Under the pieces are notes generated by a model. It saw nothing but the letters and a program-made list of their open reading frames with translations. It did not search any database and had not been told where the DNA came from. The translations under genes were made by a program, and so were the position numbers. A DNA stretch of 11,016 nt from Candidatus Heimdallarchaeota archaeon. GTDB lineage: Archaea > Asgardarchaeota > Heimdallarchaeia > JABLTI01. Where the stretch lies: contig JAUWKS010000091.1 in the NCBI GenBank assembly GCA_030614005.1, positions 1 to 11,016 of the forward strand. The letters are read 5' to 3'. This document shows positions 1 through 11,016 of this stretch, piece by piece; position 1 is the stretch's first letter; every line of letters begins with the position of its first letter.

Positions 1-201
1 GCTTCCTCGCTCTGCTAGCACTATCACAGAAACGCCTTGTGGTCAGGCAACGACTCTTGAAAGAATTTCGAGAGAAGTTTTTTAGCGATATACAGCCAAT
101 CGTCAAACGAAAGTTCCTCCCTCACGGGAGTTGGGCGGACTCGCAGAAAGTCAAAAGTTAACACCAACTCTTTAAGAGTGCGTTAACCAAGATAGACCAT
201 G
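1..201 (+). ncRNA. Putative structured RNA (TnpB omegaRNA/right-end-like or intron-like 3' domain)
   Basis: 46% GC by manual count (92/200), higher than the visibly AT-rich flanks. Nested stems: 1-9 with 69-78 (one bulged A), 34-37 with 45-48, 85-88 with 141-144. GNRA loop in both copies and cUUCGg loop in copy B read on this strand. Loop 38-44 can pair with 195-201. The family assignment is inference only. Confidence 0.45.
78..201 (+). repeat. Dispersed structured repeat, copy A (3' end of a probable mobile element; probably extends to base 1 and beyond)
   Basis: Matches the reverse complement of 10892-11016 at 113 of 125 alignment columns (11 mismatches, 1 gap, manual alignment). Similarity stops abruptly after ...GATAGACCATG at 201. 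Contains hairpins AAC-GAAA-GTT (106-115), CTCCC-TCAC-GGGAG (117-130) and GTTAAC...GTTAAC (157-187). Confidence 0.95.
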
Positions 202-266
202 CTGATAGCAATCCTCGGGATATAAGAAAATTAACCGTAGAAGATGTTACTATCTGGCATGAATAA
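202..266 (+). pseudogene. Possible orphan 3' tail of a gene interrupted by repeat copy A (...ADSNPRDIRKLTVEDVTIWHE*)
   Basis: A frame stays open from the element junction to TAA at 264-266, 1 bp from the convergent stop of the DinB gene. It has no start codon of its own. Too short to assign a family and could be chance. Confidence 0.3.
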
Positions 267-4210: not shown

Positions 4211-5179
4211 TCATTCCAATCTATTCAATATTCTATAAACTAGAAAAGTTATCCATGGAGAGGGTTCTTTTTTCTGCCCAAAATCCCAGCCTTTTGCTGC
4301 TCTCCAAACGGATTCTGCTGAAAAGAATCCATTAGTATCAGCTTTTCTCTTAATAATGGATATCATTTCTAAAAATCGTTCATCTTTGTGTAAATTTGAT
4401 AGCTGACTAAGAACATCTGTCAGATGAATTATGTCGTACCAAATCATTGGTGCCTTTAATTTTTTAAAATCAGTACCCATTCCAAACAAATACGGTTTGC
4501 GTTCTTTCCGTTGAGTCCATAAACTAAGCAGTACTTCTGCTCCTTCGTATGCGATTTTATCTTTCTTCCATTTCGGATGTTGGATTAGAGCTTTCAAAGT
4601 GATTAGATTAGCATAAGGGCAAGGATCTCCTTTTCTTCCTGGGCCTCTGAACTTGCCTAATTTCTCAGAAACTGTGCAATGCCAACCGTTCTCTTTCTTC
4701 AAACTGATTAAATGATCATATGCTCTTTCAAGTTTGTCAGTTCGGTCCAAACCCAATTTCATCAGTGAGTACAAAACTGTCGGAGCATCACATAGCATCC
4801 ATGTGGAATCATCCTCTCCTGAACCACCAAAATGAGTTGGTATATTCATAATAATCTCAAAAGATCCTTCTGATGATTGTGTTTTGAGTATTCGCTCGAT
4901 AACTTTTCCGATTTTAGCGTCTTCTTTTCTCAATCCAATATCAGCTAGAAATGACAATTTATGGATTGAATGTTTAGCATCATTGTGCCTTTTCAAAGCT
5001 GCACCTGGCCATAGCAATAATTCTTCAATAATAGTCGTTACTCTCTGATCTGCTATAATTTTTGATTTAATTTCTATAATTTGTTCATTCATGTTCTTAG
5101 TTTTCAAGAATTCAATCCTTGAATTGTATTCAACAAAGTGTTCTGATTGTAAAAGCCAGTCTAGTACTACTTGTTCCAT
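4211..5179 (-). CDS. Terpenoid-cyclase/protein-prenyltransferase-like alpha/alpha-toroid fold protein of unknown function
   Basis: QW-like repeats (KTQSSEGSF, LKKENGW, KADTNGFF) plus GDPCPYAN and APMIWYDIIHLTDVL segments. Likely start is ATG 5179 after GGTGGGG, rather than 5191. Confidence 0.7.
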   Translation of the reverse strand: MEQVVLDWLLQSEHFVEYNSRIEFLKTKNMNEQIIEIKSKIIADQRVTTIIEELLLWPGAALKRHNDAKHSIHKLSFLADIGLRKEDAKIGKVIERILKTQSSEGSFEIIMNIPTHFGGSGEDDSTWMLCDAPTVLYSLMKLGLDRTDKLERAYDHLISLKKENGWHCTVSEKLGKFRGPGRKGDPCPYANLITLKALIQHPKWKKDKIAYEGAEVLLSLWTQRKERKPYLFGMGTDFKKLKAPMIWYDIIHLTDVLSQLSNLHKDERFLEMISIIKRKADTNGFFSAESVWRAAKGWDFGQKKEPSPWITFLVYRILNRLE

Positions 5180-8484: not shown

Positions 8485-9458
8485 TCATTGTTTAGGAATA
8501 TTGGTTGAGAAAGCATTGGCATTTAGCCATCCTTCGCGTTCGAGGACTTTGTCCGACATCTTAAGAATTTTCAAAACTTTATGACGGCAAATGTACGTAT
8601 GTGGTACTGGACCTAAGTATTCGCCCATTGCATGTCCATATACTGGCTTTTTGGAGTTTGAACTAATGGTGACTTTTTTCCCTTGAAGGACTTCGACTTT
8701 TTTACGGTGTATATGTGTGCCATTTCCTAGTTTCGAAGAGGTGATTAATGAATCTATTAATGAGGTATCTCCAACAATCATAATATCCAATAATCCATCA
8801 TCAATGATAGCATCTGGAGTAACCATCATTCCGCCACCTATCCTTTGACCATTGCCAACCTTGTTGTTAACGATTTTATATCTTTAACAATTCTACCATC
8901 ATCGATATCAATATGAAAATGTCTTGGACGATATCTGAATATTGAGTTAACTAAAGCGAAATAATAAACCATTCTTGTATTTTTATCAGTAACTTGCGAA
9001 GAGACATCTGCATCTAATCCTGCACCTGCTACTCCCATACAAAATCGTTCTCCATCGTTAATTTCAATACAATCGATTTTACGTTCCTCTCTTTTTTGGA
9101 GCATTTCAATGAGATCATCTAAGTCATGTGTCTGACGAATATTGAATGCATTATCATTTCCGCGTCCAACTGGAAGAATTGCTAGCGTGCTCTTAAAACC
9201 GGCTTGACCAATTCCTGTTACAGTTTCAGTAACTGTGCCATCTCCACCAAAAACAACAATAAGCTTATGATCATCGCTTGCTTTTTTAGCAATTTCTGTA
9301 GCGTCATGTCTTTCTTTTGTCCATTCAACGTCAAAATCAAAACCAGCATTTTTCAATGCTTCTTCGTACTTTGGCCATTTCTTTTTTGCTTTACCACCAT
9401 GTGAGGTTGGGTTACATATAATTTTCATTTGCCATTTCTCCTGTTTATTTGACGACAT
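8485..9458 (-). pseudogene. YegS/Rv2252/BmrU-family (diacylglycerol kinase-like) lipid kinase split by a 1-nt frameshift at 8860/8861
   Basis: ORF 8838-9458 has NPTSHGG, GGDGT and GRGND. The minus strand at the break reads TCG TTA ACA ACA AG|GTT GGC AAT GGT CAA AGG ATA GGT GGC GGA ATG. The family motif VGNGQRIGGG therefore continues in the -1 frame into ORF 8485-8829 (TPDAIIDDGLLD). Start is 9458, or 9428 with AGGAG upstream. Confidence 0.88.
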
Positions 9459-10600: not shown

Positions 10601-10894
10601 TTAGCTAGTAAATTTCTTCCTTTCTTTGCTAGCTTTACTTTGAACTTTTTTAATGAATTTTGCTTTTCCTTCTGTGTAAGCAATTCGATCGTTTTTGTAT
10701 TTTTTAGCTAATCCCATCTTGAGGTTATTGTATTCTTTTGCAGTTTCCGGATGAGTGCGCAAATACTCTCTGAAAAGGATATTCTTTTCCCAATTCTCCG
10801 TGTTAACTTCAACTAAGTAAAGGTGGATTTTTATTCCATTTATAGATTTATCAAGTGCCTTTCTTTCTGAAATACCCTCTATACTTTTCGTCAT
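10601..10894 (-). pseudogene. C-terminal half of a GrpB (UPF0157) family protein, 5' half missing at the repeat junction
   Basis: IHLYLV...W..NILFREYLRTHPETAKEYNNLKMGLA...DRIAYTEGKAKFI matches the GrpB C-terminal pattern (HLHV..W..LLFRDYLR.HP..Y..LK..LA..DR..YT..K..FI). The N-terminal HIGST/PIIDI motifs are absent. The apparent ATG is the last 3 nt of repeat copy B. Confidence 0.8.
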
Positions 10895-11016
10895 GGTCTA
10901 TCTTGGTTAACGAGCTCTAATAAGAGTTAGAGTTAACTTTTGACTTTCTGCGAGTCCGCCCAACTCCCCGAAGGGAGGAACTTTCGTTTGACGTTTGGCT
11001 GTATGTCGCTAAAAAA
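10892..11016 (-). repeat. Dispersed structured repeat, copy B (cut off by the window end)
   Basis: Reverse complement is about 90% identical to 78-201. The hairpin loop here is cTTCGg. Same terminal ...CAAGATAGACCATG. Similarity runs to the last base of the window. Confidence 0.95.

What the first reader, a model, noticed from the sequence alone, without database searches (positions are those of the whole stretch)
78..201. Unannotated structured repeat present twice, inverted, at both ends of the window, with loop-biased divergence
Seen: 78-201 (+) and 10892-11016 (-) agree at 113 of 125 columns. Of the 12 differences, 3 are in the tetraloop of the CTCCC/GGGAG hairpin (TCAC vs TTCG). Seven are in the distal part of the GTTAAC...GTTAAC hairpin, which can still fold in both copies (ACTCTT/AAGAGT in A; CTCTAA/TTAGAG or CTCT/AGAG in B). 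Only 2 lie elsewhere. The basal stems, the AAC-GAAA-GTT hairpin and the last 21 nt are invariant, and the 3' boundary is sharp. Established: GNRA and cUUCGg are extra-stable RNA tetraloops, which points to A+/B- as the functional RNA strand. Inference: this is a multicopy element under selection for structure, and the window ends may be assembly breaks inside it. It does not match tRNA, rRNA, CRISPR or classical TIR-type IS ends.
Basis: partly seen in the sequence, partly recalled or inferred. Interest (0 to 1): 0.85.

Follow-up and report, generated by a model that had tools for sequence, protein, structure and literature searches.

The report
TnpB guide-RNA scaffold at transposon end
The structured repeat at both ends of the window is the right end of a multicopy TnpB insertion sequence in a Heimdall (Asgard) archaeon, most likely the scaffold of the transposon's guide RNA (omega-RNA), so it is a new example of a known kind of element.

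Summary
Positions 78-201 (+) and 10892-11016 (-) match at 114 of 125 columns, and the differences sit mainly in one hairpin loop and one distal stem. The window is a whole contig of a Heimdallarchaeota metagenome genome that breaks inside a repeat at both ends.

The repeat has 17 copies in this genome. It occurs in 9 of 10 sister genomes of the genus, and diverged forms occur in two further genera.

It always lies at the 3' end of a tnpB gene, overlapping the reading frame. It always stops at ...GATAGACCAT (window 200; 10893 on the minus strand), after which the flanks are unrelated.

Five hairpins, plus a pseudoknot between a hairpin loop (39-44) and the last six bases (195-200), are supported by compensatory changes.

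The left end follows a TTAT target. Intact orthologues in sister genomes show clean insertion into an aldo-keto reductase gene. They carry TTAT at the matching place for GrpB (window right end) and a nitroreductase-like gene (window left end), though GrpB lacks about 23 residues between its halves.

This is the anatomy of a TnpB omega-RNA with flank-derived guides. The RNA itself was not observed. Other readers of this scan noted the same stretch and the same TnpB family.

Two oddities remain. No Y1 or serine transposase was found in this genome, and all 7 gene-disrupting copies lie in sense orientation.

The parts
3..161 (+). 3' end of a tnpB reading frame (52 codons plus stop), cut by the contig start. 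After ...REKFF (about 83) the frame is not conserved between copies.
   Evidence: P0002. tblastn with the full-length copy P0001. P0001 is TnpB: NCBIfam NF040570 at 1.8e-50, and Pfam OrfB_IS605 plus Cas12f1-like_TNB plus HTH_OrfB. There are 1-nt and 19-20-nt indels after the T-run in alignment A1.
14..200 (+). Copy A of the predicted omega-RNA scaffold, which is the right end of the insertion sequence. The 5' limit is approximate.
   Evidence: The high-conservation block starts near CTAGCACTATCAC. The covariance model hits 52-200 at 177.5 bits.
34..48 (+). Hairpin H0 (GCCT / AGGC). Its loop 39-44 (GTGGTC) pairs with 195-200 (GACCAT) to form a pseudoknot next to the guide.
   Evidence: The stem shows a U-A to C-G change in 3 sequences. 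For the pseudoknot, all six pairs form in 32 of 35 sequences, with a U-A/A-U swap and G-C/G-U/A-U variation. Among the 9 distinct loop/tail combinations, 52 of 54 cells pair, and only 24 of 5000 shuffles do as well.
54..74 (+). Hairpin H1 (CTCTTGAAA / TTTCGAGAG). Six of the ten genome copies in alignment A1, and one sister-genome copy, carry a 9-nt insertion in its loop.
   Evidence: 9 pairs, 97% of cells paired, 2 pairs with compensatory change, and a nearly invariant U-G.
106..115 (+). Hairpin H2, AAC-GAAA-GTT, with a conserved GNRA loop.
   Evidence: 97-100% paired, with C-G to U-G and to U-A changes.
117..130 (+). Hairpin H3 (CTCCC / GGGAG), with a loop that is free in sequence and length.
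   Evidence: all 5 pairs show compensatory change in A3, and loops range from 4 to 11 nt.
135..144 (+). Hairpin H4 (GCG-GACT-CGC).
   Evidence: 91-96% paired, 2 of 3 pairs with compensatory change in A3.
157..187 (+). Hairpin H5: basal stem GTTAAC/GTTAAC (157-162 / 182-187) and distal stem (167-171 / 175-179). The tnpB stop codon TAA (159-161) lies in its 5' arm.
   Evidence: ACTCTT/AAGAGT changes to ACGCTT/AAGCGT and to ATGCTT/AAGCAT. Ten of the 11 pairs show compensatory change in A3.
188..200 (+). Invariant 3' tail CAAGATAGACCAT; the right-end boundary lies after 200. GATAG (191-195) can also pair with CTATC (21-25).
   Evidence: Every genome and sister-genome copy examined ends in this tail, with at most one substitution in the last ten bases, and then diverges. 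Contigs from other copies part from the window at 200. The CTATC/GATAG pairing is compatible but shows no covariation.
201..216 (+). Predicted 16-nt guide of copy A (flank DNA).
   Evidence: Inferred from the position just after the scaffold, by analogy with ISDra2 (PMC8612924). No RNA data.
201..266 (+). Remnant of a nitroreductase-like gene cut by copy A: the last 21 codons plus the stop.
   Evidence: The orthologue in sister genome G010 (L115:1015-1563) is intact and reads GGTTAT|ACAGATAGC at the homologous place. The N-terminal part was not found in this assembly.
10893..11016 (-). Copy B of the omega-RNA scaffold (the 3' 124 nt), cut by the contig end.
   Evidence: Covariance model hit 10893-11016 at 132 bits.
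10877..10892 (-). Predicted 16-nt guide of copy B (flank DNA).
   Evidence: Inferred from position, as for copy A.
10601..10894 (-). C-terminal half of a GrpB gene cut by copy B. The ORF's ATG is made of the last two bases of the element plus the flank G.
   Evidence: Pfam GrpB positions 77-158 of 159. The N-terminal half lies at the end of contig C43 and runs into the left end of the element. The orthologue in G010 is intact.

Best explanation
The repeat is the right end of a roughly 1.8-kb, tnpB-only insertion sequence (length estimated from the diverged full copy on contig C8) of the IS200/IS605 superfamily (IS1341-like) that recently multiplied in this Heimdallarchaeota genome. On the tnpB sense strand it most likely encodes the scaffold of the TnpB guide RNA (omega-RNA, also called reRNA).

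Shown here:
- The repeat overlaps the last 50 or so codons of tnpB.
- It forms five conserved hairpins, plus a pseudoknot that ties a 5' hairpin loop to the six bases just before the boundary.
- It ends exactly at ...GATAGACCAT, after which every copy has different host DNA.
- The left end always follows TTAT (GTAT in two copies). Sister genomes give a clean empty site at one insertion and carry TTAT at the matching place at two more.

Inferred:
- Transcription runs through tnpB and across the right end.
- The transcript is trimmed to scaffold plus about 16 nt of flank, so each copy carries its own guide.
- TnpB loaded with this RNA cuts the vacated site (TTAT followed by the flank sequence) after the element is excised. 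Repair from the sister copy then restores the element.
- TnpB is probably active. Its RuvC-II glutamate is replaced by glycine and a substitute glutamate lies 54 residues downstream, and both features are conserved throughout the lineage.

The two window ends are two separate copies facing inwards. The assembler could not pass them, so the contig breaks there.
For: Copy number and spread: 16 BLAST copies; 17 covariance-model copies in the genome, matches in 9 of 10 genomes of the genus, and diverged hits in 2 other genera. Depth over the window ends is 5-10x the interior.

The gene upstream is TnpB: NF040570 at 1.8e-50, plus OrfB_IS605, Cas12f1-like_TNB and HTH_OrfB. It is homologous to ISDra2 TnpB structures. 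Where upstream DNA is held, a TnpB ends at the RNA hit in 10 of 15 diverged or intermediate loci.

The boundary is sharp in every genome and sister-genome copy examined.

Structure: 95.2% of cells paired against 35-43% when partners are slid. Eleven pairs carry compensatory change, and 0 of 500 shuffles reach that. With diverged copies, 19 of 22 pairs are compensatory. In the pseudoknot all six pairs form in 32 of 35 sequences, with covariation. ISDra2 omega-RNA has the same kind of guide-adjacent pseudoknot (PMC10097598).

After the T-run the reading frame is not kept between copies, yet the bases are conserved.

Target: TTAT precedes all 13 left ends, with variants in 3 copies (GTAT twice, TTAC once). 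Five orthologues show the aldo-keto reductase empty site as GGTATGGG with a single ATG. The nitroreductase orthologue has GGTTAT at the homologous place, and the GrpB orthologue has ATTATG.

Catalytic residues D250, E395 and D429 and the zinc finger are conserved in 15 lineage members. The Glu-to-Gly rearrangement with a substitute Glu is a described class of TnpB (PMC10691335).

The model of omega-RNA, TAM and homing comes from PMC8612924 and bioRxiv 10.1101/2023.03.14.532601.
Against: No RNA evidence was available, so expression, processing and guide length are inferred.

No Rfam family matches. Single-sequence folding energy does not separate the two strands: z is -2.2 against -1.9.

Hairpin covariation could also reflect DNA hairpins read by a transposase on single-stranded DNA.

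No Y1 transposase was found in this genome or in 10 sister genomes, and a serine recombinase in only one. What moves the element is therefore unknown.

The junction carries a 2-3-nt ambiguity (AT or ATG at both ends), so the exact cut sites are not fixed.

No full copy of the most abundant subfamily is assembled, so the intactness of its tnpB is shown only in pieces.
Confidence: 0.9

Rival explanations
1. The repeat acts only as DNA. It would be the transposon's right end, with hairpins that form on single-stranded DNA and are read by a transposase, and no guide RNA would be made from it.
For: IS200/IS605 ends do carry subterminal hairpins that TnpA recognises (PMC8612924). The left and right ends share the direct motif CGTTAACCAA(T/G)AT. 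Hairpin covariation alone cannot tell RNA from single-stranded DNA, and G-T pairs are tolerated in DNA too.
Against: Five hairpins and a long-range pseudoknot spread over about 190 nt, overlapping the tnpB 3' end, are far more than the single subterminal hairpin that known transposases need, and they match omega-RNA anatomy (PMC10097598). No transposase that would read such hairpins was found in the genus. The two roles do not exclude each other.
Confidence: 0.05
2. The element behaves like an IStron or an archaeal intron. It would be removed from host transcripts at the RNA level, so that sense-oriented insertions in genes are tolerated, and the conserved structure would serve splicing.
For: All 7 gene-interrupting copies lie in the sense orientation of the host gene, which has a chance of about 1 in 128 if orientation were random. 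ATG is present at both junctions in 4 of them. IStrons that combine a group I intron with TnpB exist in bacteria (bioRxiv 10.1101/2023.11.20.567912). Another reader of this window raised the same idea (note e1-5394683).
Against: Rfam finds no group I or group II intron in the left end, the right end or a full copy. The left end is a decayed remnant of a neighbouring gene's start and promoter rather than a ribozyme. The last base of the element is T and the following G is not constant, so there is no omega-G. No exon-independent bulge-helix-bulge motif could be drawn by eye. The only housekeeping-type gene hit is a triosephosphate isomerase paralogue, and a second, intact copy exists. The orientation bias has simpler causes: strand-specific insertion at replication forks, or dependence of each copy's guide RNA on host read-through.
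Confidence: 0.04
3. The repeat is the 3' untranslated region or terminator of an ordinary gene that was recently duplicated, or an assembly artefact.
For: The repeat does include the 3' end of a gene, and only two copies are visible inside the window.
Against: There are 17 copies with unrelated flanks, present across a genus and beyond. The gene is TnpB. Independent sequencing runs from several studies hold the same junctions.
Confidence: 0.01

Closest known systems
ISDra2 TnpB omega-RNA / reRNA (Deinococcus radiodurans; Karvelis 2021, PMC8612924; Nakagawa 2023, PMC10097598)
   Same: The RNA is encoded on the tnpB sense strand and overlaps the 3' end of the gene. Its scaffold ends at the transposon's right end, with the guide taken from the flank. 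The bases just before the guide pair with a region far upstream to form a pseudoknot. The TAM equals the 4-5-nt target next to the left end.
   Different: There is no sequence similarity and no Rfam match. The scaffold is longer (about 150-190 nt against 116 nt) with a different set of stems. The TAM is TTAT rather than TTGAT. The protein is 499 aa with a rearranged RuvC-II site. No tnpA lies in the element or the genome. The host is an archaeon. Activity is untested.
TnpB clades with a rearranged RuvC-II site (RIIr groups) and the Asgard-linked TnpB groups of Altae-Tran et al. 2023 (PMC10691335)
   Same: The catalytic Glu of RuvC-II is replaced by Gly, and a conserved substitute Glu lies before the zinc finger. 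The host is an Asgard archaeon. The gene is linked to a WhiA/meganuclease-like LAGLIDADG-HTH gene, which that paper lists as a cargo of some TnpB transposons. In this genome relatives sit in a larger element that another note of this scan says carries a Cas1-like gene (not checked here).
   Different: The branch of that tree to which this protein belongs was not determined. The conserved GTTCACTCA motif that the paper describes downstream of a hypervariable region in aCas1-TnpB loci is not present after these right ends. Diverged homologues in another genus do end in ...GGTAGTTCAC.
IS1341-type (tnpB-only) members of the IS200/IS605 family
   Same: The element is short, with tnpB as its only gene and asymmetric ends. 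It inserts next to a short specific target without a clear target duplication, and it is multicopy.
   Different: Such elements are thought to be moved in trans by a Y1 TnpA, and none was found in 11 genomes of this genus. The left end holds a decayed piece of a LAGLIDADG-HTH gene.
IStrons (group I intron plus TnpB; bioRxiv 10.1101/2023.11.20.567912)
   Same: It is a TnpB-bearing element found inside genes in sense orientation, with structured RNA at its ends.
   Different: No group I intron core was detected, and the 3' terminal base is not a constant G.

Membership tests
TnpB omega-RNA (reRNA) | Encoded on the sense strand at, and overlapping, the 3' end of a tnpB gene | tested here: met
   Window 3-161 is the tnpB 3' end. 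The full copy on contig C8 is TnpB. A TnpB ends at the RNA hit in 10 of 15 diverged loci.
TnpB omega-RNA (reRNA) | The scaffold ends exactly at the transposon's right end, and the following 16-20 nt (the guide) differ in every copy | tested here: met
   Every genome and sister-genome copy examined ends ...GATAGACCAT (with at most one substitution) and then diverges. Contigs of other copies part from the window at 200 and 10890/1 in independent runs.
TnpB omega-RNA (reRNA) | Conserved secondary structure supported by covariation | tested here: met
   95% and 92% of cells paired, 11 of 39 and 19 of 22 pairs with compensatory change, and 0 of 500 shuffles as high. A3 was fitted to the model and so leans towards it.
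TnpB omega-RNA (reRNA) | Pseudoknot between the bases just 5' of the guide and a distant 5' segment (conserved in TnpB and Cas12 guide RNAs, PMC10097598) | tested here: met
   Loop 39-44 pairs with 195-200. All six pairs form in 32 of 35 sequences. There is a U-A/A-U swap at one pair, G-C/G-U/A-U at another, and no A-C at the third. Only 24 of 5000 shuffles of the distinct combinations do as well.
TnpB omega-RNA (reRNA) | A stable RNA is made, bound by TnpB, and guides TAM-dependent DNA cleavage | not testable with these tools
IS200/IS605 family insertion sequence | Inserts 3' of a fixed 4-5-nt target, with no target duplication and no terminal inverted repeats | tested here: met
   TTAT precedes the 13 left ends, with variants in 3. 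Empty or homologous sites are seen in orthologues. Caveat: AT or ATG stands at both junctions, so the cut site is ambiguous by 2-3 nt, and the palindromic GTTAAC gives the ends a weak inverted likeness as well as a direct one.
IS200/IS605 family insertion sequence | A Y1 (HUH) TnpA in the element, or at least in the genome | tested here: not met
   PF01797 gave no match in this genome (90% complete) and none above cut-off in 10 sister genomes, while the controls rang.
IS607 family | A serine recombinase TnpA | tested here: not met
   PF00239 gave no match in this genome and matched only 1 of 10 sister genomes.
TnpB with rearranged RuvC-II site (RIIr, PMC10691335) | The RuvC-II Glu is replaced (here by Gly) and a conserved substitute Glu lies elsewhere; the RuvC-I and RuvC-III Asp are kept | tested here: met
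   IIIGDL (G341), RISERD (E395), D250 and D429 are conserved in 15 lineage members. No structural check was made that E395 reaches the active site.
IStron | A group I intron core within the element | tested here: not met
   Rfam scans of the window, a full copy and the left end at E up to 1 found no intron family.
Any curated Rfam family | Match to a covariance model | tested here: not met
   No match at E up to 1 in the window.

The most novel reading that the evidence does not exclude
This TnpB-only element has multiplied to about 17 copies in a lineage where no Y1 or serine transposase can be found, and every copy inside a gene lies in sense orientation. It might therefore be moved by something other than TnpA, for example the Asgard Cas1-like enzyme of the larger elements in this genome, or a TnpB-dependent route. 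Its sense-only survival might reflect an RNA-level trick, either splicing or dependence of each copy's guide on host read-through.
Probability: 0.1. Interest if true: 0.75.

Novelty: new member of a known kind. Interest (0 to 1): 0.35.

Why it matters
The finding explains why this contig, and roughly 27 contig ends of the assembly, break where they do. It also identifies disrupted genes at both window ends.

It supplies a well-bounded guide-RNA scaffold with hairpins and pseudoknot supported by covariation, a candidate TAM (TTAT), and natural guide/target pairs. These belong to an Asgard-archaeal TnpB with a rearranged active site, which is useful raw material for work on small RNA-guided nucleases and on the history of TnpB, Cas12 and Fanzor.

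The lack of any known transposase in the genus, and the strict sense orientation, bear on the old question of how tnpB-only elements spread.

Tried and rejected
- Rfam at E up to 1 on the window, on two full copies and on the left end gave nothing relevant.
- No RNA holder is listed among public runs, so expression could not be examined.
- Single-sequence folding gave modest z-scores on both strands and does not decide the strand.
- RNAalifold on the first alignment missed the GTTAAC hairpin because of alignment shifts, so I supplied the structure by hand.
- The alternative long-range pairing CTATC (21-25) with GATAG (191-195) is compatible but never covaries.
- The loop/tail pseudoknot showed no covariation among close copies alone and needed the diverged homologues.
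- The GTTCACTCA motif described for aCas1-TnpB loci is not found after these right ends.
- A bulge-helix-bulge intron was considered; I could draw no exon-independent motif by eye, and no tool was run on it.
- The triosephosphate isomerase hit by one copy is a paralogue, and an intact one exists, so there is no essential-gene argument for splicing.
- The N-terminal part of the nitroreductase-like gene cut by copy A was not found in the assembly.
- GrpB is not a clean restoration. The orthologue has about 23 more residues between the two halves. The cause may be a lineage difference, a deletion, or two insertions.
- In one search I entered the commonest loop/tail combination as 19 rows instead of 17. 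The test on distinct combinations is unaffected, and only that test and the counts are cited.

Full report
WHAT IS THERE

The two arms exist as described. The repeat finder reports inverted arms 78-172 / 10922-11016 (93%) and a continuation to 229 / 10864. A global alignment of 78-201 with the reverse complement of 10892-11016 gives 114 identical of 125 columns. Three differences fall in the loop of the CTCCC/GGGAG hairpin, six in the distal part of the GTTAAC hairpin, and two elsewhere. The window is the whole of contig C93 in a 126-contig, 3.6-Mb, 90%-complete genome. Relatives of its proteins come from Candidatus Heimdallarchaeota genomes assembled from metagenomes, and the DNA occurs in marine sediment and cold-seep metagenomes.

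COPY NUMBER AND BOUNDARIES

BLAST finds 16 copies in the genome, most at contig ends. A covariance model finds 17. Every genome and sister-genome copy examined ends in ...GTTAACCAAGATAGACCAT, with at most one substitution in the last ten bases, and then has unrelated sequence. The element therefore ends at window 200, and at 10893 on the minus strand. The shared G at 201/10892 is flank: it is G in 10 copies, A in 5 and T in 1. Contigs of four public runs give 5-10 times the interior depth over both window ends, and contigs from other copies part from the window at 200 and at 10890/10891. Copy A continues upstream to base 1, and copy B is cut by the contig end at a length (124 nt) shared by three other contig-end copies (124-127 nt). 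The window ends are therefore assembly breaks inside a repeat.

THE GENE IT BELONGS TO

In copies that lie inside contigs, an ORF runs into the repeat. The one on contig C8 (P0001, 499 aa) is TnpB. It matches NCBIfam guided_TnpB at 1.8e-50, above the cut-off, and Pfam OrfB_IS605, Cas12f1-like_TNB and HTH_OrfB_IS605. It also matches the solved ISDra2 TnpB chains. Window 3-161 is the last 52 codons of such a gene. After ...REKFF the copies differ by 1-nt and 19-20-nt indels, so the protein tail changes frame while the bases stay conserved. This part is kept as nucleic acid rather than as protein. Conservation along eight full copies peaks 85-175 nt before the end.

STRUCTURE

I aligned 24 copies from this genome and sister genomes (A1) and scored a hand-drawn structure of six hairpins.
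- 95.2% of cells form pairs, against 35-43% when partners are slid.
- Eleven pairs carry compensatory changes, where shuffles give 4.1 on average and none of 500 reach 11.
- Visible examples are ACTCTT/AAGAGT, ACGCTT/AAGCGT and ATGCTT/AAGCAT in the distal GTTAAC stem, and CTCC/GGAG with loops of 4 to 11 nt.

A covariance model built from the last 150 nt finds diverged homologues in two other genera. With these added (A3, fitted to the model), 19 of 22 pairs show compensatory change and 92% of cells pair.

The loop of the first hairpin (39-44, GTGGTC) is complementary to the last six bases (195-200, GACCAT).
- Close copies do not vary enough to test this pairing.
- The diverged ones have GTGGAC, GTGAAC or ATGGAC with GTTCAC or GTTCAT.
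- All six pairs form in 32 of 35 sequences, with a U-A to A-U swap at one position, G-C/G-U/A-U at another, and never A opposite C at a third.
- Among the nine distinct loop/tail combinations, 52 of 54 cells pair, and 24 of 5000 shuffles do as well.

In the ISDra2 complex the bases -6 to -2 before the guide pair with -102 to -106. Its authors call this pseudoknot conserved among TnpB and Cas12 guide RNAs (PMC10097598).

G-U exceeds A-C in paired columns by 49 to 16, or 26 to 16 once the one pair that is nearly always U-G is left out, which favours the tnpB sense strand.

LEFT END AND TARGET

Thirteen left-end junctions share (T/G)TAT GAT (ATC|TCT) ATTTCGTTAAC... about 265 nt before the tnpB start codon. 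Three insertions can be checked against sister genomes.
- Aldo-keto reductase. The left flank on C14 reads ...CATGGTATG ATATC... and the right flank on C108 reads ...GACCATG GGCTTT.... Five orthologues read CAT GGT ATG GGN with one ATG. This is a clean insertion after (G)TAT, with AT/ATG present at both junctions, so the cut is ambiguous by 2-3 nt.
- GrpB (window right end). The N-terminal half ends contig C43 at ...GATATTAT GATTCT..., and the orthologue has GATATTATGGTT. The orthologue also has about 23 more residues between the two halves, so this is not a simple restoration.
- Nitroreductase-like gene (window left end). The orthologue reads GGTTAT|ACAGATAGC where the window has ...GACCAT|GCTGATAGC.

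The target, and thus the expected TAM, is TTAT. The left and right ends share the direct motif CGTTAACCAA(T/G)AT.

MECHANISM

The anatomy is that of the system worked out for ISDra2. There the RNA is derived from the tnpB 3' end and the right end. Its last 16 or so nt come from the flank. The TAM equals the transposase target next to the left end. TnpB cuts the donor joint left after excision, so that repair restores the element (PMC8612924; bioRxiv 10.1101/2023.03.14.532601).

I infer the same here. The guides would be window 201-216 and 10892-10877. The nuclease is probably active. In 15 lineage members the RuvC-I Asp (D250), the RuvC-III Asp (D429) and the zinc finger are kept. The RuvC-II Glu is always Gly (IIIGDL), and a Glu in (I/R)I(S/D)E(R/K) before the zinc finger is always present. 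This rearrangement is described for large TnpB groups (PMC10691335). None of the RNA steps was observed.

WHAT DOES NOT FIT NEATLY

- No Y1 transposase domain was found in this genome or in 10 sister genomes, and a serine recombinase was found in one sister only. What moves the element is open.
- All seven copies that interrupt genes lie in the sense orientation of the gene. The genes are GrpB, an aldo-keto reductase, a thiamine-diphosphate oxidoreductase split between C97 and C99, a gene on C110, a metallo-beta-lactamase-fold gene on C103, a triosephosphate isomerase paralogue on C29, and the nitroreductase-like gene.
- An intron-like reading was raised by another note of this scan. It finds no ribozyme and no constant terminal G, so I rate it low. 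Strand-specific insertion, or dependence on host read-through, are simpler causes.

ORIGIN OF THE LEFT END

In more diverged copies (C8, C15, C86), and in 6 of 9 loci from other Heimdall genomes, tnpB lies back to back with a LAGLIDADG-plus-HTH (WhiA-like) gene. The abundant subfamily keeps only that gene's start codon, about 25 decayed codons and the shared promoter region inside its left end. It is therefore a trimmed derivative of such a pair.

VERDICT

The finding is real, well bounded and explained. It is a new member of a known kind. No Rfam family covers it, but the class (TnpB omega-RNA at an IS right end) is established. Other readers of this scan noted the same stretch and the same TnpB family.

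Noticed in passing
G000 contigs C8:4614-6239(-), C15, C86:3576-5195(-); loci L064-L066, L068, L069, L071: A LAGLIDADG-plus-HTH (WhiA/meganuclease-like) gene lies back to back with this tnpB lineage in three loci of this genome and in 6 of 9 loci from other Heimdall genomes. The genome holds 13 paralogues. The abundant insertion-sequence subfamily carries a decayed remnant of the gene's first 25 or so codons in its left end.
   Followed up: partly
G000 C8 about 4400-4610, and the same place after the LAGLIDADG-HTH gene on C86, C9, C48 and C63: A conserved GC-rich stretch of about 75 nt follows the LAGLIDADG-HTH gene in five loci. In four of them the similarity runs on into a further gene, apparently the 11-kb Cas1-like/helicase element noted elsewhere in this scan. 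It has no Rfam match.
   Followed up: partly
window 8485-9458 (-): One diacylglycerol-kinase/YegS-like gene is split into two ORFs, DAGK_cat at 8838-9458 and YegS_C at 8485-8829. A contig of run X1 has an extra A behind 8860, so this is a frameshift polymorphism or an assembly error.
   Followed up: no
G000, all left and right ends of the element: All 7 gene-interrupting insertions are in the sense orientation of the host gene, and in 4 of them the junction ATG is an in-frame Met codon.
   Followed up: partly
Loci L092, L103, L105, L050: The RNA model hits these loci, but no TnpB is detectable upstream although upstream DNA is held. They may be TnpB-less derivatives of the element.
   Followed up: no
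G000 C29:3189-3797 (-): A triosephosphate isomerase paralogue lacks its first 54 or so profile positions and abuts a 5'-truncated copy of the element. An intact gene is at C67:14646-15272.
   Followed up: yes
genus-wide (11 genomes): No Y1 transposase domain was found in any genome, and a serine recombinase in only one, although the tnpB element is present in 9 of 10 sister genomes.
   Followed up: partly
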